Source: Chiloscyllium plagiosum
Taxonomy: Eukaryota
Reading direction: 5' to 3'
Assembly: GCF_004010195.1 (NCBI RefSeq)
Contig: NC_057744.1
Span: 35,782,710 to 35,846,709, forward strand
Length of the DNA: 64,000 nt
Of the stretch, positions 4,967 through 63,899 are shown in pieces (positions within the stretch are counted from its first letter, which is position 1; the number at the start of each line of letters is the position of its first letter). The notes beneath the pieces are model-generated. The model worked only from the letters and a program-made list of their open reading frames with translations, made no database searches and was not told the origin of the DNA. Both the position numbers and the translations under genes were made by a program.

Positions 4967-5186
4967 GAATAAAAACCAAAAGAATTGTGGATGCTGTAAA
5001 TCAGAAACAAAAACAAAAACTGCTGGAAAAGCTCAGCAGGTCTGGCAGCATCTGTGAAGAGAAATCAGAATTAGGGTTTCCGGTCGAGTGACCGTTCCTC
5101 TGAACTCAACCCGAAACATTAACTCTGATTTCTCTTCACAGATGCTGCCAGACCTGCTGACATTTTCCAGCAATTTCTCTTTTTTT
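4967..5186. mobile_element. Penelope-derived fold-back insertion with a degenerate hammerhead core and 15-bp TSD
   Basis: Inverted arms at about 5021-5089 and 5105-5172. TSD cttataagatatgcc (4952-4966) and ctcataaggtatgcc (5187-5201). Confidence 0.8.
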
Positions 5187-5649
5187 CTCATAAGGTATGC
5201 CTCAGTCCTGATGTAATGCTGGCCCTGAATTCCCTGCCCTCCTGAACATATTAATTTACTTTCCAGTCGATCTAATCTATTATTTTTGCATTAAAAACAC
5301 ACACTTATTGCATTATCTCTGAGAGCATCTCTAACAAAATACTTTATAAATCCCAAGTCTCTTGCTACCTCTGATTTATATTTGTCCCCATTTAGAACAC
5401 ACACTGAATTGGACCATAACCTGCAATGAACCATAAGCAATGTACTAAGAAATTATAAAGGCCATTTTGGCCAAATACTTTAGGCACCAATAAATAAAAA
5501 TCAGGAAGTGTATCTGCCAGTACTACACTCATCAATTCTATACAACAATAGTTGAAAAGAATCTTTATTTGGTTATTTATCTGCTTGTATCAAAAACAAT
5601 GATAATGCTTTACTTACAGCTTGGTTTCTCTATGTTACTACTTGAAACT

Positions 5650-5757
5650 AAGTTTTGCACCTAGCTATCTTCGTACATAATGTGACGACATTGTACACTT
5701 TTCACTGTACCCCGGTACTTCTGGAATGAGTGCACATGACAATAACGCTAAATCAAA
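5650..5757 (+). mobile_element. Rex1/Babar-like LINE 3' tail
   Basis: cttttcactgtaccccggtac...cacatgacaataacgctaaatcaaa; related to 14625-14724. Confidence 0.5.
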
Positions 5758-6165
5758 AAGGAAGAGGTGGCACCTTGGGCTGCAATGAAGGGTTACTCTA
5801 TTTTCAGTGCAAGACCCTTTTGTGCCATCATTGTAAAAGAATTCAAGCCAGCACCAATCCGAGAGATTCATTAAAAGACTGGTAGATAATTGAAATGCTT
5901 ACAGACACTTCTTAAAGAACCAGCTCCCAAAACACTTCATTTAATGACATCTGAAAATAGCAATTAGCTGACCAAGAATAAACACGTCATTGCAAAGAAT
6001 TCAGACGACTGCTTAAAAGGTGTCACATTTTGGTGTTCACTTCTTATTGGATGTTTGAAGAGGACTTTTGAAGCACACCAGGAGACTTTCTAAGAAACTC
6101 TGTTCGAAACAACAATTTAAATAGTATCCATTTATAGAGTATCCTTAATGTAATAAAAGATCCTA

Positions 6166-6376
6166 AGTGTAATTCACTGCCACAGAAGGCTGTAGAGGCC
6201 AGGTCATTGAGTAAACTGAAGACTGAGATAGAGAGGTTCTTGATTATCAAGGGCATTCAGGGTTATGGAGAGAAAGCGGGACAATGGCGTTGAGAAACTT
6301 ATCAGCCATGATTGAACGGCAGCGCAGACTTGATGGGCAGAATGGCCTAATTTCTGCTCCTATGTATTATGATCTT
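6166..6376 (+). mobile_element. CR1-clade LINE 3' end
   Basis: Runs from aattcactgccacagaaggctgtagaggcc to gaatggcctaatttctgctcctatgt. Homologous to 29590-29800. Confidence 0.8.
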
Positions 6377-6429
6377 AAGTGTGTCATAACACTCATTCAC
6401 AGGTGTAGATTTTTTGGCAAATGATTAAA

Positions 6430-7460
6430 AGCTTGGTTGAAAAGAGAAGTAAAGAGTTTTTGGACTGAATTAAAGGAACACAGCTGTCTTGAAGGCCTGT
6501 GAGGCTGGAGGAGATGACCACAACAGAACGTGTTGAAGGCACAAAAGGATTTGGAAACAAAGGAGAGAGTGTTGAGGGATTGGTTAATCTGTGACCACAG
6601 AGGTGATAGGTGAATGAGATTTCATGGAAGTAAGAATATAGACAGCAGAATGTGGAGTGATATCAATTTTAGGAAGGATAGAATGTGGAAGGATTGCACT
6701 GAGATAGTCATGTTCAGAAGTAATAACAATGGTGGAGGGATTCTGACAAGCTGATAAGGTCGGATTGTAAGGATGTTACAAAGGTGAAAATATGCAGTGT
6801 TAGCAATGCTGTGGATATGTGGTCAGAGGCTAATTTATAAATTGAAGGTTTTTAATAGTCTGGTTTAGGCTCAGAAAATTGTCAAGGACAGAAATAAAGT
6901 CAGTGACTAAAGAGCAGCTTGTAGCATGGAGAAAAGACAATAGTTTTGATTTTCTTAGTGTTTTACTGAAGGAAATTTATGTTTATCCAGTTCTGGATGG
7001 TGGCCAAGCAGTCTGATAATTTCAGAAAAAATAGTAACAAGTGTTGGAAAACCTGTTCAACCAAAGTACAACATTTCATCCATTCCCAACAGGTCCTGGA
7101 ATAGAAGGTGAACTCATAGCCTTTAATTCAAAGGCATAGTGCTACCCACAGAATGGCAAAACTTCCTAGCAGTACTGCAGAGGGAATTGAAAACCAGGAG
7201 AAAATGTTAAAATTTAAGTGTTGCTGGACTGGCAACAGTTATAGGTCAGCAAGAACAATAGTGAAGGGCAAAGTGAACTTGACACCAGTTAAGATACAAG
7301 AGGTAGAATTTTGGATAACATACAGTTTATGTAGTATACACAGTGATGATACTAGCCAGAACACTGGAATAGTAAACTCTAAACATAACAAAGGCATGAA
7401 TGAGAATTTCAGATGAGTTGAGGGAAAGGCAAAGGCGGGCGACACATGAAGATGACGTAT
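6430..7460 (-). mobile_element. Old L2-like LINE remnants
   Basis: Purine-rich degenerate sequence with twice-recurring gaatagtcaagtctagaggtaacaaaggcatg-like motifs, typical of antisense L2 ORF2 ends as recalled. Confidence 0.45.
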
Positions 7461-7909
7461 GGAGTGTTTGCAATGGAGGAGGTATCAGATTGAAAGTCTA
7501 ACCCAGGACAAAACATGAAAATACAAACACGAATAATTAAATTTGACCTTTGGTAATATGAAAAATAATTGTAAAATTTGAACCAGAGCTTCAAAATGGT
7601 TTAAAATATTCTGAGTTAGTGGTTTGGTTTCCATATCGATTTGTATTTAGAATTTAGTTTGTAACCCTTAATATCCTTTCTACTTTATAGAAAGGCTCTG
7701 ATCCTGATTCTTCCACTCTTTAAATTGCATAATTTGGAATTGAATCGCTCAAACATTTTAGTCAAGCAACTTGCATGTCTCATCCACACTCCAATGTGTT
7801 TCTTTTCAACAATCTCATGTTGCAGCCATGAACAGCAGAGAGTTAAGACCATTGAATAGCTCAAAGTTCAACCACAAAATGGTCAATAGAAGGGGAATGT
7901 CAGGCCAAG

Positions 7910-9254: not shown

Positions 9255-10602
9255 TTTATTCAGTGGCAATTTATAAGGTATTATATACTCTTACAATAAA
9301 TATTTGTCGCCCAATAATGCCTTGTACTAAAAAATCAATGGGTGTGTGAGTATTGATCTACACTTCATTTAATAATTTGAAATATTTCTAATATGGAAGT
9401 ATGATTGAACTATACTGTGTGTTAAACTATATGTGGACTTAGAAGGATAAGTACATGAGAGAGTCAAAGCCAAAGGATTTTGGGATATTTTCTGTCAGAT
9501 TTTGAAAATGGATCTAAAACAGTATGTGAGTCAACAACTACCAGGGAAATTTGGCATGGCTGAAGTGAGGAGGAGTTGTGGAAGAGCTGTAGTGTGCGGG
9601 CGGTAATAAGTTTCATTCCAAAATGGATTTGAGGTTGGGAGCTGCCATCAGTTTAGAGGATAAGAATTTACTGAGAGAAGCAGGTCTTTCTGTGGGAGAG
9701 AAAGGAGCACCCAATAACCATGTTATATTTATCGCAAGAACATCATGTCCAGGTAAACAAAAACATTTCCTGGTGATGGCAAGGAGGAACTAAGGAAATT
9801 CATGAGAGCTAAATGAAATATAAGGATATGATGTCAGGGTGAGGTGAAGTGGAAGAAGCAGCTGTGCAGCAAAACCTTTGGCTCAGATCTGCTTTGCCTC
9901 AATGACATATTTCTGTGGTTCAATATTCCACATACTTCTATGACGCATTTTGAATTGAACAATACCATACCTAACTTTTTGATTAAAATAATTTTATAAA
10001 ATCTCTACCACTTTAAATTAAATCAACCAACCAAACAGTAGCCTCTGTTGTATTACACTTTCAATAAAAACAAGCAGAATAATATTGTTAACAGCACCAG
10101 ATGTGAAAAGTTAAGATCCTGGCCTGCTGAATTAACCTCTTTCTTCTGAGCTTCTTTTTTATGTTTTAAAGGGAATACGCTCTTTCTATTGAGTAGAGCT
10201 CCTACTTGGAACCCTAAGGAATTGGCTGGCCCAGTGTTTTTACCTTAGATCTTCTCATAAGTGTATGATTATACAGTAATGATTTTTACTTAAATATTTC
10301 ATACTACAATGGAGACTATTGATGATAGTATGATATTTGCTGAGCCTTTTTGTGATGTAAGGGTAAAGAGCCTTCAGGTTAGGGAACGCAGTTGAAAAGG
10401 AATTGTCCCAGAAGACCCGTGGAGACTTTTAAGGTTTATCAGGGAAGTAATCTGGGATTAAACAGAGAGGTTCATCCATTTGCAATCATATTAAATACCT
10501 GTAAACTGAAACCTAACACCATATCCCAGCTACTTCTCACAGGAACAACTGTAAATGAAAGCAATAAGTATTGGAGAACCTCAGTAAGTCTTACAACATC
10601 TA

Positions 10603-10905
10603 TTAGATTAGATTACTTACAGTATGGAAACAGGCCCTTCGGCCCAACAAGTCCATACCAACCCGCCGAAGCGCAACCCACCCATTCCCCTACATTTACC
10701 CCTTTACCTAACACTACGGGCAATTTAGCATGGCCAATTCACCTGACCGGCACATCGTTGGACTGTGGGAGGAAACCGGAGCAAACCCACACAGACACGG
10801 GGAGAACATGCAAACTCTACACAGTCAGTCGCCTGAGTCGGGAATTGAACCCGGGTCTCTGGCACTGTGAGGCAGCAGTGCTAACCACTGTGCCACCGTG
10901 CCGCC
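10603..10905 (-). mobile_element. HE1/V-SINE-type SINE, full length, inserted into a Penelope-derived arm
   Basis: Same head, V-domain and tail. The flanks rejoin as one Penelope-type terminal sequence. Confidence 0.9.
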
Positions 10906-11102
10906 AAGAGAAAAACAGAGTTACTGCAGTGACCCTTCTTCAGAACTGATAGCAGCTGTAAATGGTGGTGTTTATGCTAATGACAGGGAGTGGTGTGAGG
11001 GAAGGAGAGAATAGAATACAAAGATTCAGAAAGGGAGAGAAAAGGAAAGGCAAACAAACTGATTGCTGATGATAAGTCAAGAGACTTACCATAAATGGAG
11101 TG

Positions 11103-11557
11103 AAAATCAAAGGAGGTCCATTCCCCAGGGTGGGGGAGTCCAACCTGGACAGCAAATGCTTAATGTGAGAGGGGAAAAGAGACCTAATGAGTAACTTCTT
11201 CCATGCAGAGGGAGGTGTGTGTATGGCATGAGCTGTCAGAGGAAGTGGATGGGTATATGAATAGGACGATTTAGAGGGATATGGGTCAAATTATGCTAAA
11301 TGGGACTAGATTTATTTAGGATACCTGGCTGGCATGGGTGAATTGGACCGAAGGGTCTGTTCTCATGCTGTATATCTCTATGTCTCTATAACTGCAGATG
11401 CTGTAAATCAGAAACAAAAGCAGAAATTGCTGGAAAAGTTCTGTAAGTCTGGTAGCATCTGTGATGTGAGATCAGAATTAAGGAAGGATCATCAGACCTG
11501 AAGTATTAACTCTGATTTCTCTTCACAGATGTTGCCAGACCTATTGAGCTTCTCCAG
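11103..11557. mobile_element. Penelope-derived fold-back insertion (split by a CR1 3' end) with a 12-bp TSD
   Basis: ataaatggagtg is exact at 11091-11102 and 11558-11569. Inverted arms at about 11428-11480 and 11506-11557. Confidence 0.75.
11115..11390 (+). mobile_element. CR1/HER1-type LINE 3' end nested in a Penelope-derived fold-back
   Basis: Runs from ccccagggtgggggagtcc to ttggaccgaagggtctgttctcatgctgtatatctctatgtctctat. Homologous to 29850-30160. Confidence 0.8.
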
Positions 11558-11579
11558 ATAAATGGAGTGCTCCAGCAAA

Positions 11580-12095
11580 GCTCAACATGAGCTGGAGGAA
11601 CAACAGTTAATTTTTCGCTTAGGTATCTTGCAATTTTCAGAACTCAATATTGAATTTAACCATTTCTGAATGTGCACACTCTGCCCTCTATTCATTGCCT
11701 TTCCCTCGTTGCTGTGGGTCCCATGCCAAAAGTGGGGGGGGGGGGGTTCCAGCAGAACTAACCCATTTCCAACCACCCACATTCTCATTGGCACCCATTC
11801 AGTGTTTCCCTCCCTCCCAGTTTATCACCAGCAACCCCTTTGTTTGCCTCTCCTCATTTTCTCCTGTGGGCACCGTCTCCATGTATTCTACTCACCCCCT
11901 TCCCTACCCATCACCATCATCAGTATGAATACCCAACCTCATCCAGCTGCTATCAATTCTGAAGAAGAGTCACTGGACTCCAAATGTTAACTTTTTTCTC
12001 TCTCTCTCCACCAATACTGCTCGAACTGGAAAGGTTTTCCAGCTATTTCTGTTTTGGGATTCAGATCTCCAGTGTGAGCAGTACTTTGTTTTATT
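11580..12095 (+). mobile_element. Old Penelope-like element 3' end; its inverted partner arm is at about 10570-11090
   Basis: ELEEQQLIFRLGILQFSELNIEFNHF* resembles the ORF end at about 35540-35620. CTGAAGA-A-GAGTC-ACTG-GACTC-CAAA at 11959-11984. 10926-11080 is the reverse complement of about 11820-11975. Confidence 0.75.
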
Positions 12096-23500: not shown

Positions 23501-25789
23501 ACACATGCTGTGAGTGGGCCTGAAGTGGGGCTGCCAGGCAATATCAATCTGTGCAAAATAAAGTTATAAGAAATTCGTTTTCCTTTCAAATTCCTATCCG
23601 CCATTGAACTTGAAGTTTGGAATATTACATTTCTGTTAGTCAGAATGTTCAATTCTATCTTTCTTTAAATCAATTCCAGCATTTTCGAAGTTACGCCATA
23701 CCTGGGGATGAGGGTAACTTTCCCAGCAAGTGATATCACAACGGCAAGGATCACATAAGCAAAGATATTGTGAGTGATAAGGACTGAAAGTCGCCCCCCT
23801 ATTTAACTAAATAACAGGCAGGGTCTTGCTTTTCAGATTCAGTCAGTTTCTGAAATTGCAAACCACTCTGAAATTGTACAGGGTTATTGCTGTTAAACAG
23901 GTGGAAATTCAGACACAGCTGAAGGAACAATTTCAACAATATTTTCCTGGGTGCTCCCTTTTTTTCTTCGATTCTTCCTTCCAACAAAACAATGTTAAAT
24001 GGTTTGAAGTTCAGGCCGTTTCAGGAACGCTGCTGTCTCATTCTTACCTTTACGTAAGACGAGGTGTCCGGAACAGTCTGAAACATCTTCCTTCAAGCTG
24101 CCCTCTCTCCCGCTCCGGTTGGATCCACGTCCTAAAAGGAGTCTCACATTTGAGAAGGAATACAGCAGGCGGGTTTTGCTAGTGCCCCTTTCACCCAGGC
24201 CACCACACCTTGACCCCTCTACATTTCCTGTCGACTGCCGGGCCATGTTGAACCGCACACAGCGGACATAAAATGCATTCCAAATCACTCAGATAGGACA
24301 TCACTTTACCCCCAATCCGTCACAGACACACCTACAAGTGATGATTCTCAGGAAATGTTTAAATACTGCTTCTTCAAATGCGTATTACATTAGTGAGTCT
24401 GTCTATCTATCTATCCTCCAGATACTGTCTCTGTCCCCCAGGCTCCCTCCCTTCCCGGTATATCTGTTGCAGGGTTAATTTTGTTCACCACTCTTTCTCT
24501 CTAATTTCCTCCACGCCCATCTGTTCTCTCCTTAACTTCTCATTTGCCCCCCCCCCCCCTCCCTCTTTTTCCTTCTGATTTTTTTCCCCTCTTCACCTTT
24601 GTATTCTGCCAGCATTCATTTGGATGTGTCCGCTAACCGGAGAGAGTCAGTCTCTTCTCATTCTCGAACACGTTTTAAGTTTGCTTCAACTGTTCATGGC
24701 TCCGTGCTGGGTTTTTTTTAAAAAAAACCCAATTCTTCACCAGCAGTTTTTTTTCACGATTTAGGCTCTTTAGAAAGAACACTAGAATAGACATACTCAC
24801 CCTTTACGCCGGTTAAAAGCACTCTGGGTTTCTTTCACTCAGGCGCAGGAGTATTTCAGCGAAACAGACTAGTTAACGGGCCATTGCTAGCCTAATACTG
24901 GCTGTGTACAAGTCTTGACAAGAAAGTCCATACTGTGGTACAGTGGGGGCTGTGTGCCTCCAAAACTCCAGACAGACCGAGTTCAGCAAAGCCTCGGGGA
25001 ATTATTATTAACAGAGCATTTTTTTAAAAAGAAAAGCCATGGTTTAGTTGATCAATTTCTGAGATGAATTCTAATTAACTACTGTGAAATGGAAATCCTC
25101 CTGTGTCAAACTGAATTCGAAACCCGTCCCCATGAATTACTGCCCCCACCCCGTTTTACATTTTCACCATAAACCCGGAGAAGTAGGAAACTCCTAATTT
25201 TACTGTTTTTTTTAAAGGAGTTAAACCAAGAAGCGACGCTGAGTGGAGCTCCAGTTCCGCAGCTTCAACACAAATCTCCAACTTTTAATTTAAAATGAAT
25301 GGGGGGGGGGGGGGGGGAGCAAATGAGAAGTTAAGGGCTTAACTTTAACAGAGCCAGCCCTAACTTTAGTAACAAAACTAAAAACAGAAAATACCAACTT
25401 TTTTTAAACTAAGTTATTCAAGGTACATGTATCCTTTTTCAAAAAAAGACAACCTAAACTTTTAATTCCGTCAGTCTCCCCTCCCCCACTGCGACCCAGG
25501 CTGCAGCATATTGAAACAGTTTTCTCTGAACAGTAACATCTAACGAGTCGGGGTGAAAGGGGCCAGACAGGTCGCTCTGTCTGCGTTCAGCTCTACCGTT
25601 CAATTATATACTAACGGAACTGATGAAGGTATTTACATTTCTGGGCAACGCAAAGTTAACTAGTTCGTGACATTGTAAGGAAGTATTATTGAGGGAGAAA
25701 GAATATACGTCTGACTCTTCCAAAATCACAGCATGTTAACAGTGAATCATTCGAATCCTTTAGATTTTTGGTGGTGTAGTTTACAGCCA

Positions 25790-30165: not shown

Positions 30166-31424
30166 TTGTGTTTAATAACACGAATAATACTTTTAACACG
30201 GATCAAAACTCCATACTTTTCCCAGTCAGTAAATCTATTTGCCCCCGCCCCCCCAACTCTTCACCTAACTCTTAAGATAATTTTCAGTCTATATGTAGGT
30301 ACATGTGTAAAGTTGAGTATTGCATTCCCCAGATAAAGGTGACTGAAAGAGCAGATCGAGCAGGTTGTCGGAGTGAAGACTCTCTCAGAGCCTGCTCCTC
30401 CACTGAATCAAAATATATCTAATTTACAAAGTAGAAATCAAACACAGAGAGGTTACTGAAAATATAAAGCAGCAACAGTGCATTGTCGAAATACCACTCA
30501 TCAAGGCCGGAAGAAGTGAGGACTGTAGATGCTGGAGATCGGAATCTAGAGTATGGTGCTGGAAAATTCATCCAGGCAGCCTGTTTGTAAAATATAGGAG
30601 AACGATTCAGGAGAAAATACTTCGTGAAACAGAATTGAGGCCAAATCCACTGTTAGGAACCATTCCCTAAATCATTTGCAACGAATCTTCAAGTAACCGG
30701 GATTAGTGGAGCTGATGCAAAAACTAAATATACAGGACACATCATTGTAACTAAACGAAATTTGTTCGCATTTGTTTTGGAAAATTTCAATTGAGGTATG
30801 TTCGTTTCAAATTTAAATTGTGCTAAAATGATCTTTAAGAGGAGGCCGATTGGGTTAAGCCCACTGCTGCAGCCCATTCGGCCGCCTCTCTTTAACCTGT
30901 ACTAGCTCTTCGCTCTCATTTCGCAGTGAAGACGCACAGGTTGGAATCAAGACTATTTCTGCTGAAAGGTCAGCGGCCTGAGAAATTAATTCTGCTTTAT
31001 TTTCTCGCTACCGATGCTGCCTGCGAGCATTCCCATCATTCTCCGATTATATTGGAGAATTTCTAACGTTTTCGGTCAAATCGTGTTTTTTTGTGTGTAT
31101 GTGTGTATTAAAGAACGGCAGAGGGAGGCCGCTGACTGGATTTAATCAAAACCTCCAGACATTCGTCTGAATACTGTGTCAAAGAAAGTAACCGATTTAT
31201 ACAAAACCGCGCGAAGAGCAAAGTACGTCTGGCTTGCATCTCCATTAATTTCCGGAATACACTTTATTTTTAAAATGCCGGATCCGAACCCAATGAAAGG
31301 CAGTTTTGGTTTGGAGCCGAGGCTAGAGTTCCGGGTTTACAGACTGATGCTCAGAATCCCAGCAGTGCCAACACCAACAACCTGATTAAAATGCCATAAA
31401 AATAACCTTTTTCCTAGCTGCCAT

Positions 31425-31560
31425 CAGTACAGAGGAAGGGTCACTGGAACCAAAAGGTTGACTCTGATTTCTCTCCACAGATGTTGCCAGACCTGCTGAG
31501 TTTTCCCAGCAATTTCTGTTTTTGTTTCTGATTTACAGCATCGGCAGTTCTTTAGGTTTT
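31425..31560 (+). mobile_element. Penelope-derived terminal fragment with a degenerate hammerhead core
   Basis: cagaggaagggtcactggaaccaaaaggttgactctgatttctctccacagatgttgccagacctgctgag; same family as 4967-5186. Confidence 0.75.
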
Positions 31561-31589
31561 TAATAAGATCGGTAGCCATGATGTGATGG

Positions 31590-31779
31590 TGCTGGTGTTG
31601 GTCTGGGGTGGACAAAGTTATAAATCCAAGTTATAGACCAAGAGATTTATTTGGAAGCACTAGCTTTCTGAGCGCTGCTCCTTCATCAGGTTACCTATTA
31701 ATTTGGAAGTACCTAATACCTAGTGCTTCCAAATAAACCTGTTGGGCTATAACCTGGTGTTGTGTGATTTTTTAACTTT
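31590..31779. mobile_element. Second Penelope-derived fold-back family with a hammerhead core on the minus strand
   Basis: Arms tttatttggaagcactag and ctagtgcttccaaataaa. Minus strand reads CTGATGA-A-GGAGC-AGC-GCTCA-GAAA-GC-TA at 31689-31661. Confidence 0.75.
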
Positions 31780-32649
31780 ATTAATATCAAATGAGGGCCT
31801 GCAGCTCTCAGATAAATGCGCGGCCGAAGCAGTGACTGCCAATAACTGGAACTTCGCCAATAAAGCCAGTGTCAGTGTTAGCATCAGAGTCATCAACAAC
31901 TCCGCGCTAGAAAGAAGTCTTTTCAAATTACTCAGTGATGTCCAAAACACCAGATGTAATCTTAACTTCGCAATACTGCTTCGAACAGAGACAGAGTACA
32001 ATAAATCTGACAGTCCCAAGACAGCAGGGTAAAAAAAAATACCTCAAATAAATCAAAGAAATGCAGATGCTGGAGATCTGAAACTAACACACGCGGGTCG
32101 TTCTCGCCGCTGAAACGGAAAGCTCCCATTTCAAGTGCCACCTCACATTGATCACGAAAGAAGCATTGATGCTGCTCAATGTTGGGTATCAATGAGCCTC
32201 CAAAATCACTCTGACAACTTCACACTGTGAAAATGTGTAAGAGAACACAGTGAAAGCAATTGCTGTCAAAATATGCTTTGGAGAGATGGCTTCTCCAATT
32301 TTTTTCATAATTCTCAACTCATATTAATGTACATTTGCCTATGTCACCCGTTCTTTTGAAATAAAAAAATCACTTTTCAGATGTGAATATTGCCGGTAAT
32401 CATTGCATTTGTTAAATGACTCAGAGAAGGTGATGGTGAGCCATCTTCTTGAACCACTGTAGTCTATGTGGTGGAAACACAACCATAGTATTATTAAGAA
32501 GGAATGTGTGCACTTACACACAATGTTTATATGCTTGCTATATACTACACATATCACATGTATATAGCAGATGTACAGCTCTTTATTATCCCCTGATGGA
32601 CATCAAATAAAAGTAAACATTTTTATTCATTGGAACTTAGTTTTCCCAC

Positions 32650-34771: not shown

Positions 34772-36255
34772 TCATGGAATCATAGAGTCATAGAGATGTA
34801 CAGCACGGACGCAGACCCTTCGCTCCAACTTGTCCATGCTGACCAGACATCCCAACCCAACCTAGTCCCACCTGCTAGCACTTGGCCCTCTAGTTCTGGA
34901 CTCCCTGAACCCCCGGGAAAAGGCTTTGTCTATTTATCCTATCTATTCCCCTCATGATTTTATTAACCTCTATAAGGTCACCCCTCAGCCTCCGATGCTC
35001 CAGGGAAAACAGCCCTAGCCTATTCAATCTCTCCCTATAGCTCAAATCCTCCAAACCTGGCAACATCCTTGTAAATATTTTCTTAACCTTTTCAAATTTC
35101 ACAACATCTTTCCGATAGGAAGGAGACCAGAATTGTATGCAATATTCCAACAGTGGCCTAACCAAAGTCCTGAGGTAAAAACAATGACTGCAGATGTTGG
35201 AAACCAGATTCTGGATTAGTGGTGTTGGAAGAGCACAGCAGTTCAGGCAGCATCCAAGGAGCTTCGAAATCGACGTTTCAGGCAAAAGCCCTTCATCAGG
35301 AATAAAGGCAGTGAGCCTGAAGCGTGGAGAGATAAGCTAGAGGGTGGGGGTGGGGAAAAAGTAGCATAGAGTACATTGGGTGAGTGGGGGAGGGGATGAA
35401 GGTGATAGGTCAGGGAGGAGAGGGTGGAGTGGATAGGTGGAAAAGGAGATAGGCAGATGGGACAAGTCCGGACAAGTCATGGGATGGTGCTGAGCTGGAA
35501 GTTTGGAACTAGGGTGAGGTGGGGGAAGGGGAAATGAGGAAACTGTTGAAGTCCACATTGATGCCCTGGGGTTGAAGTGTTCCGAGGCGGAAGAGGAGGC
35601 GTCCTTCCTCCAGGCGTCTGGTGGTGAGGGAGCGGAGGTGGATACAATAAATGATATTAGTGGATGCTCAAGTAAAATTTTGATGGATGTGGAAGGCTCC
35701 TTTAGGGCCTTGGATAGAGGTGAGGGAGGAGGTGTGGGCGCAGGTTTTACAGTTCCTGCGGTGGCAGGGGAAAGTGCCAGAATGGGAGGGTGGGTTGTAG
35801 GGGGGCGTGGACCTGACCAGGTAGCCACGGAGGGAACGGTCTTTGCGGAAGGCGGAAAGGGGTGGGGAGGGAAATATATACAGCCACAACATGCCCTCCC
35901 AACTCCTGTACTCAATACTCTGACCAATAAAGGAAAGCATACCAAACACCTTCTTCAATGTCCTACCTACCTGCGACTCCACTTTCAAGGAGCAATGAAC
36001 CTGTACTCCAAGGTCTCTTGGTTCAGCAACACTCCCTAGGACGTTACCATTAAGTGTATAAGTACTGCTAAGATTTGCTTTCCCAAAATGCAGCATCTCA
36101 CATTTATCTAAATTAAACTCCATCTGACACTACTCAGCCCATTGGCCAACGTAATCAAGATCCTGTTGTAATCTGAGGTAACCTTCTTCGCTGTCCACTA
36201 CACCACCAATTTTGCTGTCATCAGCAAACTTACTAACTATACCTCTAACTATACA
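34772..36255 (-). mobile_element. CR1/HER1-type LINE 3' part, interrupted by a Penelope-like element
   Basis: ORFs MEFNLDKCEMLHFGKAN...RDLGVQVHCSLKV and RTLVRPLLEYCIQFWSPSYRKDV; (catagagt)n tail. Confidence 0.9.
35173..35878 (-). mobile_element. Penelope-like element, 3' part: Cys-rich linker, internally deleted GIY-YIG region, ORF end, and 3' region with a hammerhead core
   Basis: Minus translation gives FPSPPLSAFRKDRSLRGYLVRS...FPCHRRNCKTCAH and RLEEGRLLFRLGTLQPQGINVDFNSF. CTGATGA-A-GGGCTTTTGCCT-GAAA-CGTC at 35299-35272. The host CR1 rejoins across the insert (tcctg|tacagcc). Confidence 0.85.
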
Positions 36256-37672: not shown

Positions 37673-37689
37673 AAACAATTTATGTTTGC

Positions 37690-39609: not shown

Positions 39610-41335
39610 ATTAATTCATGGGATGTGGGTATTGCTGGCTAGCCAGTATTTATTGTCCATCCTTAGTTGCCCTTGAGAAGGTAATGATGAGTTACCTCTT
39701 GAACTACTGCAGTACATTTGCTATAGATGAATTCACAATGCTGTTAGGGAGGGAATTCCAAGCATTTTTTTTCCCAGTGAGGATGGTGAATGGTTTGGAG
39801 TGAAGCTTGCAATTTTTGGTGTTCTCTTGTACCTACTGCCCTTGTTCTTCCAGATGATAGTGTCTGTGCATTTGGAAGGTGCTGTCTAAGCAATCTTGGT
39901 AAATTTGTGGTACATCTTATAGATAGTACACACTGCTACTACTGAACATTGGTGTTAAAGGGATAGAATATTTGTGGATGTGTGCCAATTAAGTGGGCTG
40001 TTTTGTCCTGGATGGTATCAAGCTCCTTGAATATTGTTGAAGCTGCACTCATCCAGGCAATTAGGAGTATTCCATCACACTCTTCACTTATGTGCTTTGG
40101 ATGGTTGATATGTTTTGGGGAGTGTGGAAGTGAGTTACTTACTGCAGAATTTCTAGTTTCTGATCTGCTCTTCAAGCCACAGTACTTTTACAGCTTTTTG
40201 AGTTCAGTGTTGGTCAATGGTAACCCCTGTGATGTAGAAAGTGGGCAATTCAATGACGGTGATACTATTGAATGTCAAGGGATGATAGATTCTTTCTCAT
40301 TGGAGATAGTCATTGTCTGGCATTTGTGTTCTGTGAATGTTATTGCCACTTATTAGCCCAAGTCTGTATGTTGGCTAAATCTTGTTGCATTTAGGCATGG
40401 ACACTTCAGCATCTGAGGAGTTACAAATTATGCTGCACATTATGCAATCATCAGTAGAATATCCCTACTTCTAATTTTATGATGGAGAGGAGGTCATTGA
40501 TGAAGCAGTTGAAGATGGTGGGGCCAAGAACATTGACCTGAGGAACTCCTGTGGAGATGTCCTGGAGCTGAAATAGCTCACCTCAAACAATAACAGCCAT
40601 CTTGCTGTATGCCAGGTCTGACTCCAATCAGCAGAGAGTTTTTCCTCTGACTCCAGTTTTGCTGAGGCTCATCAGCTAAATGTACAGGGCAATCACTTTT
40701 GTATACTCTTTGGAATTCAATATGTAACACAGCTGCTATCCCAACTTGTCCACTTTTGAACTAGGGCTGTAATAAAGATAGAAGTCACACAACACCATGT
40801 TATAGTCCAACAGGTTTATTCCAAATCACAAGCTTTTGAAACGCTACACCTTCATCAAGTGAAGCCTAGGGCTGAGCTCAGGTTGTAATGACATCAGATG
40901 CTGAGTGGTTTGATGGAACCCAAATTGAGCATAAGCAGTTTATTATTAATCAGGTGTTACATGAAAGCACTGTTCGTAACATCTTTCATCACTTTACTAA
41001 TGATTGATGTGATTGTAATTGACTGGTTTGGATTTCTTTTGCGTTTTGCATTTAGAATATCCTTAGGCATTGTCAAGTAGAGGCCAATGCTGTAGCTATA
41101 CTGGAGCAACTTGTTTAGGGGCATGATGAATTCTGAAACACACGTCATCAGTACTATTGTTGGAATATTGTCAAGGCCCATAGATTTTGCTGTACCCAGT
41201 GCCATTAGCCATTTCTTGAACTCATGTGGAGTGAATTGATGTAGCTGAAGATAGGCATCTGTGATTCTGGGGATCACTGGAGGAGAACAAGATGGAACAT
41301 CCACTCAGCAATTCCAGTTGAAGACTGTTGCCCAT
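39610..41335 (-). mobile_element. Old L2/CR1-group LINE, 1.7 kb decayed RT
   Basis: Minus ORF QFTPHEFKKWLMALGTAKSMGLDNIPTIVLMTCVSE is an RT N-terminus; same 3' tail as the copies at 32650, 45150 and 51325. Confidence 0.78.
40780..40865 (-). mobile_element. Fragment of the second Penelope-derived family
   Basis: tcacacaacaccatgttatagtccaacaggtttatt matches 31733-31767 in reverse complement; the hammerhead core is decayed. Confidence 0.7.
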
Positions 41336-41993: not shown

Positions 41994-42174
41994 GGAGAAA
42001 GTGAGGTCTGCAGATGCTGGAGAGCAGAGCTGAAAATGTGTTGCTGGAAAAGCGCAGCAGGTCAGGCAGCATCCAGGGAACATTCCTGAAGAAGGGCTTA
42101 TGCCCGAAACCTCGATTCTCCTGTTCCCTGGATGCTGCCTGACCTGCTGCGCTTTTCCAGCAACACATTTTCAG
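41994..42174. mobile_element. Young Penelope-derived fold-back: perfect 54-bp inverted repeat, hammerhead core in the loop, exact 14-bp TSD
   Basis: Arms 42029-42082 and 42122-42175 are exact reverse complements. The loop contains CTGAAGA-A-GGGC-TTAT-GCCC-GAAA-CCTC. TSD catagtttatgtaa at 41980-41993 and 42175-42188. Confidence 0.9.
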
Positions 42175-42329
42175 CATAGTTTATGTAACTCAATTTTAAT
42201 TTGAATTGATTCTAATCCACCTTAAACTTACAAAAAGTGGAATCTTGCCCAGAAATTTCTTCAGTTAGTTGTCATTCAGGAAATTTGCTTCTTTTGGTTT
42301 ATGAATCACATAGGGATTATAAACTGTTA

Positions 42330-44280: not shown

Positions 44281-44291
44281 GATAAAGAAGT

Positions 44292-44604
44292 GGCACGGTG
44301 GCACAGTGGTTAGCACTGCTGCCTCACAGCACAAGAGACCTGGGTTCAATTCCCGACTCAGGCGACTGACTGTGTGGAGTTTGCACATTCTCCCTGTGTC
44401 TGCGTGGGTTTCCTCCGGGTGCTCCGGTTTCCTCCCACAGTCCAAAGATGTGCGCGTCAGGTGAAATGGCCATGCTAAATTGCCCGTAGTGTTAGGTAAA
44501 GGGGTAAATGTAGGGGAATGGGTGGGTTACGCTTCGGCGGGTCGGTGTGGACTTGTTGGGCCGAAGGGCCTGTTTCCACACTGTAAGTAATCTAATCTAA
44601 TCTA
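44292..44604 (+). mobile_element. HE1/V-SINE-type SINE, full length
   Basis: Runs from ggcacggtggcacagtggttagcactgctgcctcacagc to ctgtaagtaatctaatctaatcta. Confidence 0.9.
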
Positions 44605-45149
44605 AAGTGGATTTACTAGATTTTTGATCTTTGAGAGAATTGAAGGGCTAATGAAAATGGGAACTGGGTGAGAAAGTAGGAATTGAGGCAGAAGATCAAC
44701 ATTAATGGTGGAGTAGGTTCAATCAGTGGAGATTTTCAGGTGTATTTTTAGATGCCATATGAAGAATATTTGGGTGAAGAGATCACCCTGTTATGTGTGT
44801 ATTGTCCAAAGTACAAAACTAAAGAAAAACCTCTAGGTTTGTTTCAGTTTCTGTGCAATGCTATATTGTGAAAAAAAGGAGAGGTTGCAGGGTTTGGTGT
44901 GTGAATCACCGTGCCAAATGTAAAGCCTCACAAATCTAGACCGTTATCAGGACGATCACAATTCTTGAATATCTAACAGCCCCATAATATTTTGTCATAT
45001 TTAGCGGTTTGGACGTGTGATATCATGTTGCATTTTAGTGTCTCAACTCAGCTAAATTAATCACCTGAATGCGGGTGAATCCTTACTGCAGAAGACAGAA
45101 TTCCTGCTGCAATTCACCACACTAGATGCAAGTAGAATTTTTTTTCTTT

Positions 45150-51300: not shown

Positions 51301-51324
51301 TTTATCTCTCACGTATTTATTTTT

Positions 51325-52145
51325 CATTTGTTCATGGGATGTGGGCATCACTGACTGGGCCAGCAGTTATTCCCACATTCTAGTTGCCCTGAAGAAGGTG
51401 GTGAGTTGCCTTCTTGAACCACTCCAGTCCTTGGAGTGTAGGAACACCCATAGTACCATTAGGAAAGGAGCTCCAGAAATTTTACCCAACAACAACATAA
51501 AAAGAACAATATATTTTCAAGTCAGATGGTGTGTGGCTTAGAGGGGAACATCCAAGGGTGATGTTCACAGGCATCTCCTGTCCTTATCCTTAAAGATAGT
51601 ACGGCACGGTGGCACGGTGGCACAGTGGTTAGCACTGCTGCCTCACAACGCCAGAGACCCGGGTTCAATTCCCGCCTCAGGCGACTGACTGTGTGGAGTT
51701 TGCACGTTCTCCCCGTGTCTGCGTGGGTTTCCTCCGGGTGCTCCGGTTTCCTCCCACAGTCCAAAGATGTGCAGGTTAGGTGAATTGGCCATGCTAAATT
51801 GCCCGTAGTGTTAGGTATGGGGTAAATGTAGGGGTATGGGTGGGTTGCGCTTCGGCGGGGTGGTGTGGGCTTGTTGGGCCGAAGGGCCTGTTTCCACACT
51901 GTAAGTAATCTAAAAAAAAAGATCAGGGTTTGCTATCAAAAGAACCTTGGTCAGTTGTCACAGTTCATCTTGTAGATGGTGCACACTGCGGCTACTGTGT
52001 GTCAGTGGTGAAGCCACATATTGTTTAAGTGGTGCATAGGATGTCAGTAAGTGGGCTGCTTTGTCCTGGTTGCTGTCAAAGTTCTTCAGTGTTGCTGAAG
52101 CTGCATTTATCCATACAACTATATTGTACTTCTGACTTGTGCCTT
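51325..52145 (-). mobile_element. Old L2/CR1-group LINE 3' end interrupted by an HE1-type SINE
   Basis: catgggatgtgggcatcactgactgggccagcagttattcccacatt... is collinear with 39615-40090. Confidence 0.75.
51602..51912 (+). mobile_element. HE1/V-SINE-type SINE, young full-length copy inside an older LINE fragment
   Basis: Near-consensus copy with CpGs retained and a duplicated ggcacggt at the 5' end. Confidence 0.92.
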
Positions 52146-52598: not shown

Positions 52599-52599
52599 C

Positions 52600-56946: not shown

Positions 56947-57660
56947 TTGTGAAGAGTTTTGGCTCCCTATCTAAGGAAACATATACAGGCATTGGAGACA
57001 GTCCAGAAGAGGTTCATTGGCCTAACCCAGGTCTGGAGGATCTTATGATGAGAAGTTGAGTAGGTTTGGTTTGTGCTTATTGGAGTTTAGATGAAGGTGA
57101 CCTTTTGAAACAACAAGGTTCTTAGGAAAGAAAGCAAAAATGCTGGAGATTACAGCAGGTCAGGCAGCTTCCATGGAGAGAAAGCAAGCTAAGGTTTCAA
57201 GTTTAGATGACTCTTCACATCTAGACTCAGAACATTAGCCTGTTTTCTCTCCATCAATGCTGCCCGACCTGCTGTGATCTCCAGCACTTTTTGTGTTCTG
57301 TTCAGATTTCAGCAGTAATTTGCTCCTGCATATGGTTCTTAGGAGAGTTGACAGGGTAAATACTGAAAGGTTGCTTCCCCTTGTGGGAGAGTCTGGAACT
57401 TGGGGACATAATCTCAGATTAAAGTGTCACACATTTAAGACAGAAATGAAGACGAATTTCTGCTTTCGGAGGGTTGTGAACCTGTGAAATTCTTTACCAG
57501 GGAGAGCTGTCGAGGCTGTTTATTAAGTATACTGAAGGCTGAGATAGATTACTAATCATTGTTGGAATCTAAGGTTATGGGGAAAAGGCAGGAAAGTGAA
57601 TTTGAAGAACATCAAATCAGCCATAATCTCACTGAATGGCAGAACAGGCTTCTGTTTTAT
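56947..57660 (+). mobile_element. Older CR1-clade LINE 3' fragment (host of two later insertions; its 5' stub is about 55308-55337)
   Basis: aaggcactagtcagacctcacctggaata continues as ttgtgaagagttttggctccctatctaagg after the minus-strand CR1. Confidence 0.75.
57128..57333. mobile_element. Penelope-derived fold-back inserted into a CR1 with an exact 11-bp TSD
   Basis: ggttcttagga at 57117-57127 and 57334-57344. Inverted arms tgctggagattacagcaggtcaggcagc and gctgcccgacctgctgtgatctccagca. Confidence 0.82.
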
Positions 57661-60600
57661 ATGTTGTATTGTCTCGTCTGCATTAGTTATCAAGCACCTT
57701 TCTACGTTAGTCCCAGCTCCCAGCACTTGGTCTGTACTCTTGTCTGTTATGGTGTTTGAAGTGATTATCTGGATACTTCTTAAAACTCTAGAGAAAATGT
57801 ACAAAGAGGACAGGTGGTTGATGCCTAATATTCCCCATTCTTTCATTTCCTGCTCCAATCCCTTATCTTGAAATTCCATCTCAGACAGTGGTTTAATGGC
57901 TTGTGGCAGGATAAGGAGCACAAGGAGAGGATAAGGAGAATATGGGGTAAGGGGTGTATGGGAGGGGGTGAGGAGAGTCTGGAAAGGGATGAGGAGTATG
58001 CAGGAAGGATTAAGGAACATGCAGAAAAGGGATAAAGATTGTGGGAAGGGGTTGGGAATAGGCAGAAGGGCTATAGGGAATGCATGGGGGGGGTTGGTTA
58101 AGAGTGTTTGGGAGGGGCAAAGGAGCACGGGAGAGGAGTAAGGAGCATGGTAAACTCAAACCCAATGGTAAAAGTGTGAGCTGGTGTGGAGTGGCAGCAG
58201 GTTTGGGATTAGAGGGCTCAGAGTACATGCATGGTGTGGGTAGTTCTGAAATGCATAGTGATGTGAGAGCAAAGGGGAGAGGTAGCCTGTGGAGGAATGA
58301 GGAGAATGTGTCAGAGGCTTGTGTGATCCGCAGCATTGCTCTCAGAAGCCGATAGTGAAATTATCTCTGAGGCGCATGGTTGGGTCCAGTCTGTGGACTT
58401 TTTACACCCTGGGTTGTTGAGCTGAACACGATGTCACTTAGAGACTGGGGAGACAGTGGGGTTGGTAAATGGGTCGCTCCACTGTGCTGTGCTTTGAGAG
58501 TGATTTAGTGTTGTGAAAAGAACAGCCACAATCACTGAATTTGTGGACAGAAGGAGCAGCAGTCCTTCCTTATGAGTCTTTATTTCTCTCCACAGATGTT
58601 GCCTGAAATGCCAAATTTCTCCAGCACTTTCTCGTTTTGTTTCAGATTGCAAATATTTTTAATTCTTAGTTTTATTTCCTTATGTGTTATTCATTTTAAA
58701 TCTAACCCTAACATGACAGACAAGGCTGAAATATATGCAAGGTTCAGATGTCATGTGTTACAGAGTCATAGAGGACTACAGCACAGAAAATGGATTGTTG
58801 GCCTGTTGAGTCTGCCCAGTCTAAAACAAACACCTAACTCCTCTAACCCCATTTCCAGCGCTTGGTGGATATCTTTCATAGCCTTGGAATCTCATGTCAT
58901 ATCTGAATACTTATTAATAATCGCGGGAGTTTCTGTCTCTGCCATCATGGCAGGCAATGACTTCAAGACAATATACACTCCAGATGTTTCTGTGAGCACA
59001 AATTAATAAAGAATGTTAAAATTATTAATTCTTTTATCTTTTAAAAATGCTAAAAACAGAACTTACTTGCGTTTTAATGTTTTAGCATGAAAACAACAAA
59101 AATCCTGGGATATTCAATTCATTTTCTTTCCCAACTCATTGGTAATCCATAATGTTCAGATTTATTGATGGATGTTTTGCAACAGATGTTATGAAGATTT
59201 CCAAAAGCAGAAGTCAAAATAAAACTGTAAATCTGAACTTCGCACAGAAGGTGTGGAAATCACACAGTAGGCCAGCAGCATCTGGAAAAAGATGGATTAG
59301 CAAAAGGTATAGTCTGGCAAAACCTCATGCAAATTCCAAATTCTGTCCAAAGATACATTCATAAAGTGGAACTTATACTTTCTCTGCCAAGAGGTTGCTA
59401 TTCTCTGATTTATTGTTTCAGACAAAAAAAATACTGCATTCATGATACGTGAATATTGCATCGGTCTGAGGCATTTTTGGATTGAAATTTTCGGTTTTTT
59501 CCAGGGTTGGGGGATTAGGTTATCATTTGGATGAACACTATTCTGGATTTGGAGTTTTGATTTAGATTGTCCTTGAATTTAGCAGATAATTTGATTGACA
59601 CAGTCTGTAAATTGGGGTTATGTTTAATTCAGATTACCTATGAATTTGGGGTATAGAGATTGAGGTAAACTATGACTGGCTTTTTACTCGGATTGAATTG
59701 TGCTGAGTAATGTTTTTATAGATAGCACCAGTTGGGTGTTACACTGATTTTCTGTCTGAATTCGGAGTGGCTCTGTGTTTACCTGTTCTGGTATGTTGCT
59801 TTCCTACAATCCACGTGTTTAAGGGTATCAGTTAGCAGATTTTGATGCCTCTGGCCAGCCCCTGGTGCCTTATTTCCTGTTTCTATTTCCAGCTGCAAGA
59901 CCCTAGCCCATGTAATTTGACCACATCAAGCTGACCATCCGTGACATTTTTTTGCCTTTAGCCTTAGCCACCAGCCAGTGCACAGGAAATGGAACCGGAT
60001 ACATACAGAGGGTGCTCGGGCAAGAGGCACACATCACTTTTACTTCTGACCTGAAGCCAATTCCAGCAGAAATATCAGTCCAGGAATCAATCCCTCTTTG
60101 TCTGTTGTGATCCAGTAGACAGCCTTTCACCCACTTCATAAGTGTTAAAGTAGTTGGACTGAAAGAAAAGGGCAAATGGAGAAAGAGACAGGGCAGGATG
60201 AAATGAAGACAACATAGCTACAAAATAAGAAAGGGACACTGGACATCAAACAGAGAAAGACAGAAATAAGCGGGAAGAAAAATCTGAAATTGGCGAATGA
60301 CAAAAGGAGAGCTTGAGACACCCAAAGAGAATAGGAGTCAATGAACTAAAAAATAGAAAAATATTGAGATTGAAATAGAAGAAATAATGCATAAAGCACA
60401 AGAGAGAGAAAGTAAAATGCAAAGATAGGGAGAGAAAAAACAGAGTAAGACTTCATAATTGTACTTCTTTTCTGAAATATTTTGTCTAATTTAGCCAATC
60501 AGAGGAATAATCCTGATATTCATTTCTTTTATGATATTCACCTTTTACTAGGCATTTCAAATTGTACACTTAATCCTCTTCCCAGGAAATTTAGATTCAA

Positions 60601-61419: not shown

Positions 61420-61600
61420 AAAAGTGAATTCAATAAATCTGATAATTTGGGGATTAGTACTGACTACAAAAGCTTCCAAATTTTTGATAAACCCAACTCA
61501 GTTATTAATGATCTTCAGGAAGGATAGAGGCATCTATTTGATCTGGCCTACAGATAACACCAATACCACATTAGATACCACATAAAATGACAAAAGATAT
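61420..61600 (+). mobile_element. Highly diverged DeuSINE-like fragment
   Basis: tgaattcaataaatctg...aacccaactcagttattaatgatcttcaggaagga...tctggcctaca. Confidence 0.5.
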
Positions 61601-61743
61601 TGCTCTAACAATGCCGTCTAATCCCAGAGTCATTATTTAAAATAAAGTTGTAACCTTTGGTCAGAAGTGTAAATCATGATAAACACCAGCAGTGTTTTAC
61701 ATAATTTGGCTTTGCAGTAGATTGCCACAAGAATTAAGTCCCT

Positions 61744-61778
61744 GTGTGTGTGTGTTTATGTTTGTGTGTGTGTGTGTT
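61744..61778. repeat. Interrupted (TG)n microsatellite
   Basis: gtgtgtgtgtgtttatgtttgtgtgtgtgtgtgtt. Confidence 0.85.
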
Positions 61779-63201
61779 AGTTAGTAGGACTTAATCCCTG
61801 CTAGAAACTGTTAAGGCCTTCTAGTTAATTGGGACATTGTTTCCTCACCCAGCTAGTGTATGTCTTGTGGTTGCAACTGAAAGAACTTCTAAAAAAGCTC
61901 ATTAACAGAAATGAGTGCAGTGAGTAGGAACCCATCAATGACCTCAGGCTCCCTGATAAATAGTTTCTGCGGCAATGAATCGCTCCATTTATTCTCACCC
62001 AGCGTGTCCCCTCCCTGCAGCCAACTTTCCACCTGAAAATATTCTTCTTATTTTGTTAAGTAGTCGTCAAGTTGCAAAGCTCCTGAGAATGTTACAGTAA
62101 GATCAGTTTTTATCCACAACAAACTACTCATTCATTGGAGTGAGGAGAAGTAGGTTTCAGTTTTAGGGCAGCCCTGTCATGGTTAAATTGCAAATTGCCT
62201 TGTCATGTTGAAGGAGAAAAAGAAGGTGAATGGGGACAGACCATGACAAAGAGGAAATTTCAAGCACTTCTTTTCCATTCTCGACCAGAAGGCAAAGATG
62301 GCATTTTACCATGTTGGGAATAGTTTTATAAATACCTTAATCCCTCATAGTATTTTCTTAAAAGACCATAATAAATAGAAACATGATAAAGTCCCACAAA
62401 TAACATTTCACATTTCATATGGTACCAGTTTGTGCTAATACCATCCATGACATTAGCAATTTCCTTTGGTCACTGTGTGTTTCCATCTATTTCCTGTATG
62501 TTAGCACCATCGGTAACTTTTTTGAATCACACCTAATCCTTGCATATCAATAAAATTGAAAGATTACACAATTCCTTTGTAAATGCTGTTGTAGAATTAC
62601 AACATTGCAATAGGACCGTCAGTAACATTGTAGAATTGCACTTAATTCAGCAATGTGGCAAGATCCTTCCCATCTAGGTCCTATAATATTTCAGTAATTT
62701 CACAGTATTTCTTTTAATTCTTGTGAATTAATGCCATTGGCAATTTTTCAAGATATCCGTTGGTCCCTGTGTGTCAGTGCCAACTGTAACAGCACTTTTT
62801 CTCCACTATGTTGGAGGTATGGGTAACATTGTAAGTTTCCCTCAGATCCTTGTATATTGGAGCTTGTTCCTCTGTTTGTGTGTGCCTGAGTTACTGGATT
62901 GTCTGTAATCCTGATGTTTTACTGTCATTCGAAACAATGCAGATTCTCTTTACTGCTCCTCCTCTGTGTATAACTGCCTGTTTATGTATGCTAGATTCCC
63001 CTGATTCTTATGTGACTGGAAAGCAAGCAAGGCACAGAACATTCCTGAGGCAGTGATTGGTAGATTCTTGTTAAGTAAGAGATTGAAAGATGATCAGGGG
63101 TTGGTGGGAATGTGCATGAATTCGCAGTCAAATCAGCCATGATCTCATTGATTGGTGGAGCAGGCTCAAAGTGTTTAACTGCATACTGCTCCCAATTCAT
63201 A

Positions 63202-63513
63202 TTAGATTAGATTACTTACAGTGTGGAAACAGGCCATTTGGCCCAACAAGTCCACACCGCCCCGCCGAAGCGCAACCTACCCATACCCCTACATTTACCC
63301 CTTACCTAACACTACGGGCAATTTAGCATGGCCAATTTACCTGACCTGCACATCTTTGGACTGTGGAAGGAAACCAGAGCACCCGGAGGAAACCCACGCT
63401 GACACGGGGAGAACGTGCAAACTCCACACAGTCAGTCGCCTGAGGTGGGAATTGAACCCGGGTCTCAGGCGCTGTGAGGCAGCAGTGCTAACCACTGTGC
63501 CACCATGCCGCCC
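63202..63513 (-). mobile_element. HE1/V-SINE-type SINE, full length
   Basis: Near-identical to 215-523. Confidence 0.92.
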
Positions 63514-63789
63514 ACAATGTTCCATTATATAATAACATTCTGCTCTAATTACAAACTGGAGCAGCATACTAATGTTTTGTGATTCATTCAAGAGAACACC
63601 AGATCTTTCTGTGTATCAGAGCTCTGCAAACTCTCCCTTTGAGATAACATGATTCAATTTTAATCTTCCTGCCAAAAAGCACAATTTTACATTTTCCCAT
63701 GCTATGTTCAATTTATCACGTCTTTGTCCACTCACTTAACCTACCTACATATTTTTGGAGCCTCTTCACAATTTATTTTCCTACCTACA

Positions 63790-63899
63790 ACAAAAACGGA
63801 AAGTGCTGGAGAAACTCAGCAGGTCTGGCCGCATCTGTGGAGAGAGGATCAGAGTTAATGATTAGAGTCCAGTGACCCTTCTTCAGAACTGTTCTGAAG
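63790..63899 (-). mobile_element. Penelope-derived terminal fragment with a mutated hammerhead core
   Basis: Minus strand reads cagtt-CTGAAGA-A-GGGTC-ACTG-GACTC-TAAT-ca-TT-aact. Short palindromic junction cttcagaac-t-gttctgaag. Confidence 0.75.

What the first reader, a model, noticed from the sequence alone, without database searches (positions are those of the whole stretch)
4967..63899. At least three divergent repeat families share one minimal hammerhead fold with co-varying stems
Seen: the layout CTGANGA-A-[stem II]-GAAA-NN-TH recurs with different but paired stem II sequences: GGGC/GCCC (42094), GGGC/GCCT (35291, minus), GAGTC/GACTC (11967), CGGTC/GACCG (5095, minus), GGGTC/GACTC (63878, minus) and GGAGC/GCTCA (31681, minus). 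Stem I flanks also co-vary: AGTT/AACT at 63889, TCAC/GTGA at about 40862, and TC/GA at 35301 and 42084. Loop III carries a palindromic tetramer, ACGT (35273-35276) or AGCT (31662-31665), the feature proposed to let minimal hammerheads act as dimers. All have an extra A after CUGANGA. Inference: compensatory change across families points to selection on RNA structure. About ten such relics in 64 kb implies a very large genome-wide population of ribozyme-derived sequences in this shark.
Basis: partly seen in the sequence, partly recalled or inferred. Interest (0 to 1): 0.7.

Follow-up and report, generated by a model that had tools for sequence, protein, structure and literature searches.

The report
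Shark Penelope-element hammerheads, massively copied
These small ribozyme-shaped motifs are the known hammerheads at the ends of Penelope-type jumping genes, present in an estimated few hundred thousand mostly decaying copies in this genome, likely because the element's copying enzyme starts just behind them, so they are an ordinary kind of sequence but a large natural record of how these elements insert.

Summary
The motifs are real minimal type I hammerheads in pseudo-LTRs of Penelope-like retrotransposons (PLEs). Three families occur in the window and four in a genome sample. The fold, the extra base after CUGANGA, the palindromic helix III and covarying families were described in 2014 (PMC4209133).

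Covariation between families holds: 15 of 16 stem I/helix III cells pair. Copies decay neutrally at G12.

In a 1.14 Mb sample there are 84 intact-core motifs per Mb, about 3x10^5 genome-wide. Many copies are head-to-head stubs with 12-16 bp target duplications. In 79 of 84 such pairs one arm carries the tail and the other lacks it. Arm 5' ends pile up within 12 nt upstream of the hammerhead, not at its cleavage site; families B and D have a TATA box 40-48 nt upstream of the core.

Likely mechanism: both cut DNA strands prime on one uncleaved RNA and run off its 5' end. This scan found such stubs before on other shark DNA. Cleavage was not tested.

The parts
4719..4850 (-). Family C pLTR end with tail, 5'-truncated inside the hammerhead
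4970..5184 (.). Family C head-to-head stub: tail arm 4970-5106(-) with degenerate hammerhead (core at 5102), tail-less arm 5109-5184(+); 12-bp target duplication with 1 mismatch at 4955 and 5190
10927..11075 (-). Family C pLTR with 5' half of the hammerhead (3' half lost) and an A/T-rich box about 33 nt upstream of the core
11390..11557 (.). Old family C head-to-head stub with partial hammerhead
11574..12092 (+). Family C 3' end: endonuclease C-terminal remnant (11574-11666), pLTR, hammerhead at 11959 with G12 lost, tail
30514..30579 (-). Family A tail fragment without hammerhead
31424..31566 (+). Family C pLTR end with tail, degenerate hammerhead
31579..31783 (.). Family B head-to-head stub: tail arm(-) with hammerhead core at 31689 and AGCT at 31662-31665; tail-less arm from 31708(+)
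35174..35880 (-). Family A 3' end: CxxC linker and GIY-YIG remnant (35877 to about 35560), pLTR, best-preserved hammerhead (core 35299; predicted cleavage between 35272 and 35271), tail to 35174
40756..40862 (-). Family B pLTR end, hammerhead at 40858 with C3 and G12 lost; stem I TCAC/GTGA
41994..42174 (.). Young family A head-to-head stub: tail arm 41994-42082(-), tail-less arm 42083-42174(+) with hammerhead core at 42086; perfect 14-bp target duplication at 41980-41993 and 42175-42188
57126..57314 (.). Old C-like head-to-head stub with two partial hammerheads
58582..58648 (+). Family C fragment downstream of the hammerhead
63789..63899 (-). Family C arm with hammerhead at 63886 (GAAA box lost) ending in an inverted junction remnant

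Best explanation
The motifs are minimal type I hammerheads in the pseudo-LTRs of several Penelope-like retrotransposon families, and they are so numerous likely because they lie in the first 100-140 nt that the element's reverse transcriptase copies. SHOWN: position between the GIY-YIG end and the next ORF start (families A, C and D tied to coding remnants; B only by shared architecture); two 3' ends about 35 nt apart (about 30 in D); head-to-head stubs with target duplications; one tail-bearing plus one tail-less arm; arms sharing source variants; 5' ends piling up just upstream of the core, not at the cleavage site; neutral CpG decay of G12. INFERRED: a pLTR promoter starts RNA about 5-18 nt before the hammerhead. 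The protein nicks both DNA strands about 12-16 bp apart. Both 3' ends prime on the same uncleaved RNA, one at each adjacent start site. The two cDNAs run to the RNA 5' end, or further when the 3' pLTR is the template, and are joined head to head. The ribozyme fold is kept by selection in source elements, probably for slow protein-assisted or dimer cleavage of transcripts, and is not needed for copying. Confidence: about 0.95 for identity, 0.6 for the one-RNA double-priming mechanism, 0.6 that family sequences cleave under some condition.
For: PLE link: EN remnants upstream of window hammerheads. 21 of 30 EN-fragment loci have the motif downstream. 9 of 30 ORF-start loci have hammerhead plus tail running into the ORF. 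GIY-YIG above cutoff plus weak RT in one frame of L197. 164 long RT-family homologues. Census: 96 hits in 1.142 Mb versus 0-5 in 10 shuffles. Head-to-head arms within 50 nt: 77 versus 1, 0, 1 in the other orientations; 79 of 84 classifiable pairs are long+short. Young pairs agree at 57 of 60 polymorphic sites, against 57% expected for random arms. End rate 3.7%/nt at -20..-49, 0.5 at +10..-9 and 0.4 at -50..-199. Of 88 A/B/C arms reaching C3, 60 end within 12 nt upstream, 2 in the next 18 nt and 26 beyond. TATA-like box 33-40 nt before C3 in 17 of 18 B upstream regions and 47-48 nt before C3 in 6 of 10 D regions. In vitro a PLE cuts and extends both strands, starts at two sites and uses uncleaved RNA (PMC11167929).
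Against: No transcription start, cleavage or insertion intermediate was observed. Families A and C have no regex-matching TATA box, only an A/T-rich patch. Family D shows no clear wall (2 of 10 arms). The nine ORF-start loci begin between about -200 and +26, not at the wall. Over all pairs, concordance at polymorphic sites is 82%, lower than at other sites. Arm-to-arm divergence is lower in core A/T positions (9/277) than in other A/T positions (91/1397, p=0.04), which is not what strict neutrality predicts; G/C positions show no difference. PMC11167929 saw no strand difference in start-site use. No family B ORF was recovered.
Confidence: 0.7

Rival explanations
1. Fold-back self-priming: one cDNA folds on itself at a short palindrome near the hammerhead and copies itself, giving the second arm (related to the self-priming proposal in PMC3846280).
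For: 16 of 101 junctions have loops of 0-2 nt. It explains identical arms. PMC3846280 passages report palindromes at inverted junctions.
Against: The unique middle should always belong to the tail-bearing arm. It belongs to the other arm in 33 of 45 assignable pairs (the 33 include 9 where that arm's end was unclassified). In L190 the ORF lies on the tail-less arm.
Confidence: 0.12
2. Two RNA molecules held together by the palindromic helix III (hammerhead dimer) template the two arms.
For: A palindromic tetramer is kept in all four families, with one compensatory switch. The PLE protein is predicted to be dimeric (PMC11167929).
Against: Arms share source variants, so both RNAs would have to come from one locus. 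It does not by itself give the long+short rule. Hammerhead catalytic mutants still insert in vitro (PMC11167929), though helix III was not the mutated part in the text I read.
Confidence: 0.1
3. The stubs are a self-standing MITE-like or retrozyme-like unit that is mobilised whole, with the ribozyme under selection in each copy.
For: Many of 30 top hits share the window copy's junction at 94-98% identity. Core A/T positions are slightly conserved between arms.
Against: Those 30 were ranked by likeness out of 3,218 candidates. In the unbiased sample junctions vary widely. G12 decays at the CpG rate. No excess of tandem orientation: 14 and 19 versus 13 within 1 kb.
Confidence: 0.06
4. Chance motif matches.
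For: Relaxed scans have background: 22 versus 6-15 at two mismatches. No Rfam hit.
Against: 96 versus 0-5 hits; 91 of 96 have U16.1, which the descriptor did not ask for.
Confidence: 0.01

Closest known systems
Minimal hammerheads of metazoan PLEs (Cervera and de la Pena 2014, PMC4209133; abstract, results, discussion and part of methods read; supplements not read)
   Same: Type I fold with no loop 3, palindromic 15.2-16.2, extra base between 9 and 10.1, G10.1-C11.1, covarying families, mostly dispersed single motifs.
   Different: Scale: about 4,000 (coelacanth) and 9,000 (Xenopus) there, versus about 3x10^5 intact-core here (about 1x10^5 on my strictest definition); the descriptors differ. 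Helix II is 4-6 bp here. Sharks are not named in the parts read.
EN+ PLE insertions with inverted pLTR, one-sided 30-40 bp tail and TSD (PMC3846280, PMC8557442; passages)
   Same: Head-to-head inverted pLTR, tail on one end, TSD, heavy 5' truncation; CxxC linker of Neptune/Nematis type in family A.
   Different: Those passages call the tail optional and ascribe it to self-priming or EN resolution. Here it follows a near-strict long+short rule, and junctions cluster at the hammerhead 5' edge.
PAc, Poseidon of Anolis (PMC11167929; main text read)
   Same: Hammerhead at the pLTR-ORF junction, two start sites bounding the tail, uncleaved template.
   Different: In vitro, one element; no link to inverted insertions in the text searched.
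Non-LTR retrozymes (10.64898/2026.07.22.740005, first part and passages; PMC7229834, search listing only)
   Same: Non-coding, type I hammerhead, PLE-related; reported in one chondrichthyan.
   Different: Retrozymes are tandem repeats. These copies are dispersed solo or inverted ends with TSDs.

Membership tests
Minimal type I hammerhead (PLE type) | CUGANGA and GAAA boxes, U16.1 and H17 in family majority | tested here: met
   All four families; N17 is C, A, U, C
Minimal type I hammerhead (PLE type) | Helix I and II pairing with compensatory change | tested here: met
   15 of 16 cells outside the descriptor pair, permutation P=6e-4; four related lineages only, not corrected for phylogeny
Minimal type I hammerhead (PLE type) | Palindromic helix III tetramer; unpaired base after A9; G10.1-C11.1 | tested here: met
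   ACGT in A and D, AGCT in B; in C inferred from CA/TG decay (only 2 of 23 arms keep CG)
Minimal type I hammerhead (PLE type) | Self-cleavage as dimer or with protein | not testable with these tools
   No assay possible
Rfam hammerhead families | Covariance-model match | tested here: not met
   No hit at E<=5
EN+ Penelope-like element | One ORF with RT and C-terminal GIY-YIG | tested here: met
   Family A: (RT below Pfam cutoff). C and D: EN remnants only; B: none found
EN+ Penelope-like element | pLTR repeated before and after the ORF, carrying the hammerhead | tested here: met
   Family A, in separate loci: 3' side; 5' side. No single complete copy was read
EN+ Penelope-like element | Inverted pLTR, one-sided tail, TSD | tested here: met
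Neptune clade (family A) | Cys linker between RT and EN | tested here: met
   C-x4-C-x2-C motif in window and loci
Neptune clade (family A) | RT phylogeny with named clade members | not tested
   No named reference set held
Non-LTR retrozyme | Tandem units each with a hammerhead | tested here: not met
   No such array in the window; no tandem excess in the sample; arrays elsewhere in the genome not excluded

The most novel reading that the evidence does not exclude
This genome holds about a million PLE end copies that record an insertion mechanism not yet shown in vivo: both nicked strands prime on one RNA at two adjacent sites and run off a TATA-driven 5' end about 10 nt before the hammerhead. 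That would explain the inverted pLTR and the one-sided tail of Penelope elements together, and would make this one of the most hammerhead-rich genomes described.
Probability: 0.5. Interest if true: 0.6.

Novelty: new member of a known kind. Interest (0 to 1): 0.38.

Why it matters
The ribozyme class is known. What the genome adds is numbers. Roughly 3% of sampled bases are PLE end stubs, the hammerhead count is at least ten times the published vertebrate counts I read, and the stubs constrain an open question: how PLEs make inverted ends and tails. The long+short rule and the 5' wall are directly testable with the existing in vitro system and with cap mapping.

Tried and rejected
Rfam scan: only weak hairpin-type matches below gathering scores, no hammerhead. 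GIY-YIG profile search of the genome: one weak match, uninformative. The RVT_1 hit on L209 was dropped because that frame is a LINE/PLE chimera.

RNA: no RNA holder listed on record. One polyA single-cell run (about 2% read) shows family reads on both strands and no place where many molecules begin or end; a second run laid nothing. These libraries cannot see cleavage ends or caps, so this is no evidence either way. Monomer folding gave a hammerhead-like fold as the minimum-energy structure in 1 of 6 copies, near it in 2-3 more, and far from it for the window's 35299 copy; not decisive.

The idea that 5' ends mark the cleavage site was rejected (294 of 365 arms span it). A reverse-transcriptase stall at the folded ribozyme was rejected by inference, because it should stop at the 3' edge. 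I did not test whether local microhomology density contributes to the junction peak.

Lunse et al. (dimer cleavage) was not held; I know it only through a review passage (PMC6765202). Literature searches. None of the listings showed a shark hammerhead census or the long+short rule, and one search returned 0 papers. Subscription papers, Repbase/Dfam and supplements (including those of PMC4209133 and the bioRxiv preprint) were not seen and may hold shark entries.
Full report
Observation. All seven cited motifs are present. The strict scan exceeds shuffles (3 versus 0-1). Only three keep both core boxes, and only 35299 also keeps the palindrome and a paired helix II. Rfam finds no hammerhead. The window's repeats fall into three families by stem II: A (GGGC), B (GGAGC) and C (GGGTC).

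Identity. Upstream of the 35299 motif the window encodes a Cys linker and GIY-YIG remnant; upstream of 11959 lies an endonuclease C-terminal remnant. Walking family A through the genome gave RT and GIY-YIG in one frame and 164 homologues of 721-2055 aa at E<=1e-30. The motif lies downstream in 21 of 30 EN-fragment loci. In 9 of 30 ORF-start loci the hammerhead and tail run straight into the ORF. This is the pLTR arrangement of endonuclease-bearing PLEs. Families C and D have EN remnants; no family B ORF was found.

Census. I took 120 stretches of 10 kb at round coordinates on contigs C1-C34 (1.142 Mb without N). A descriptor needing both core boxes and 4 stem II pairs hit 96 times, in 64 of 120 stretches; shuffles gave 0-5. 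That is 84 per Mb, bootstrap 66-104, or about 3x10^5 for 3.56 Gb, assuming unsampled contigs are alike. Homology found 365 pLTR-end arms, 320 per Mb and 2.9% of bases. Of 198 arms spanning the motif, 104 have an intact core and 41 pass all criteria, about 1x10^5 genome-wide. A fourth family D (GTTACC, extra U) appeared. The assembly has gaps inside young copies, so counts are rough.

Covariation. Family majorities give stem I pairs C-G/C-G/U-A/A-U, U-A/A-U/U-A/C-G and U.U/C-G/G-C/U-A, and helix III C-G/G-C/C-G/C-G (C inferred from decay products). 15 of 16 cells outside the descriptor pair against 8.2 expected. This rests on four related lineages and is not an R-scape test. A G-C to A-U change at II.2 recurs within A (7 of 108) and C (6 of 23). 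At the C11.1-G12 CpG, loss of G12 (51) is as common as the tolerated C-to-T (62); that G12 is catalytic is established knowledge, recalled. Against pure neutrality, core A/T sites differ less between arms than other A/T sites (p=0.04).

Anatomy. Each family has two 3' ends about 35 nt apart, about 30 in D. Arms pair head to head (77 within 50 nt versus 1, 0, 1). Of 109 pairs (5 from the window), 84 were classifiable and 79 are long+short; 25 had an unclassified end. Target duplications of 12-16 bp are common but were not found for every pair. For junctions I dropped the 5 long-long or short-short pairs and 3 without an anchor, leaving 101. Ends occur at 3.7%/nt between -20 and -49 from the cleavage site, against 0.4-0.6 at the site and upstream. 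Against natural upstream copies, 60 of 88 A/B/C arms that reach C3 stop within 12 nt; unrepresented subfamilies could inflate this, but the distance-based measure agrees. B has TATAAA about 40 nt before C3, D about 48; A and C have only A/T-rich patches. The 30-nt TATA-to-start spacing is textbook recall. Young arms share variants (57 of 60 sites; in the selected loci L001-L030, 24 shared versus 20 differing).

Mechanism. PMC11167929 shows in vitro that a PLE cuts and extends both strands, starts at two internal sites and prefers uncleaved RNA. The simplest reading of my counts is that both nicks prime on one RNA, one at each site. This forces long+short and identical arms, and lets the upstream-started, tail-less arm lead (33 of 45). 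Stubs would be run-offs from the transcript's 5' leader, long copies from the 3' pLTR. The hammerhead multiplies as a passenger. Its own role stays inferred: likely slow, assisted cleavage of transcripts.

Comparison and verdict. Earlier notes of this scan reached similar readings on other shark DNA. I saw them after and before the TATA and wall tests; a search for those terms found nothing. Verdict: new members of a known kind, notable for scale and for two testable regularities. Interest 0.38.

Noticed in passing
L077, L182-L211: A family A subfamily with a 10-residue in-frame deletion downstream of the RT YIDD motif, seen in L077 and L190; the top 30 matches are 98-100% identical over 337 nt, suggesting recent spread.
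   Followed up: partly
family C, e.g. window 31460-31482(+): A pyrimidine tract plus CAG directly precedes an ATG about 20 nt after the cleavage site. It looks like a 3' splice site that would place the hammerhead in an intron. A short frame from this ATG recurs in A and C.
   Followed up: no
family C: N17 is U in 23 of 23 arms, a triplet recalled to cleave slowly.
   Followed up: no
window 30940-31050(+): Very old hammerhead-bearing relic (core at 30959) inside a CpG-rich, promoter-like stretch at about 30800-31400.
   Followed up: no
window 214-522, 10599-10905, 44290-44610, 51608-51923, 63192-63512: Abundant tRNA-like SINE copies resembling shark HE1 (name recalled, not tested).
   Followed up: no
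L190, left end of the insertion: The left flank holds a short inverted copy of target sequence between two tail pieces, a more complex end than a plain duplication.
   Followed up: no
window 25788-26403 and 37067-42620; 28691-29115: Degenerate CA-rich and GT-rich repeat tracts; a 425-base assembly gap.
   Followed up: no
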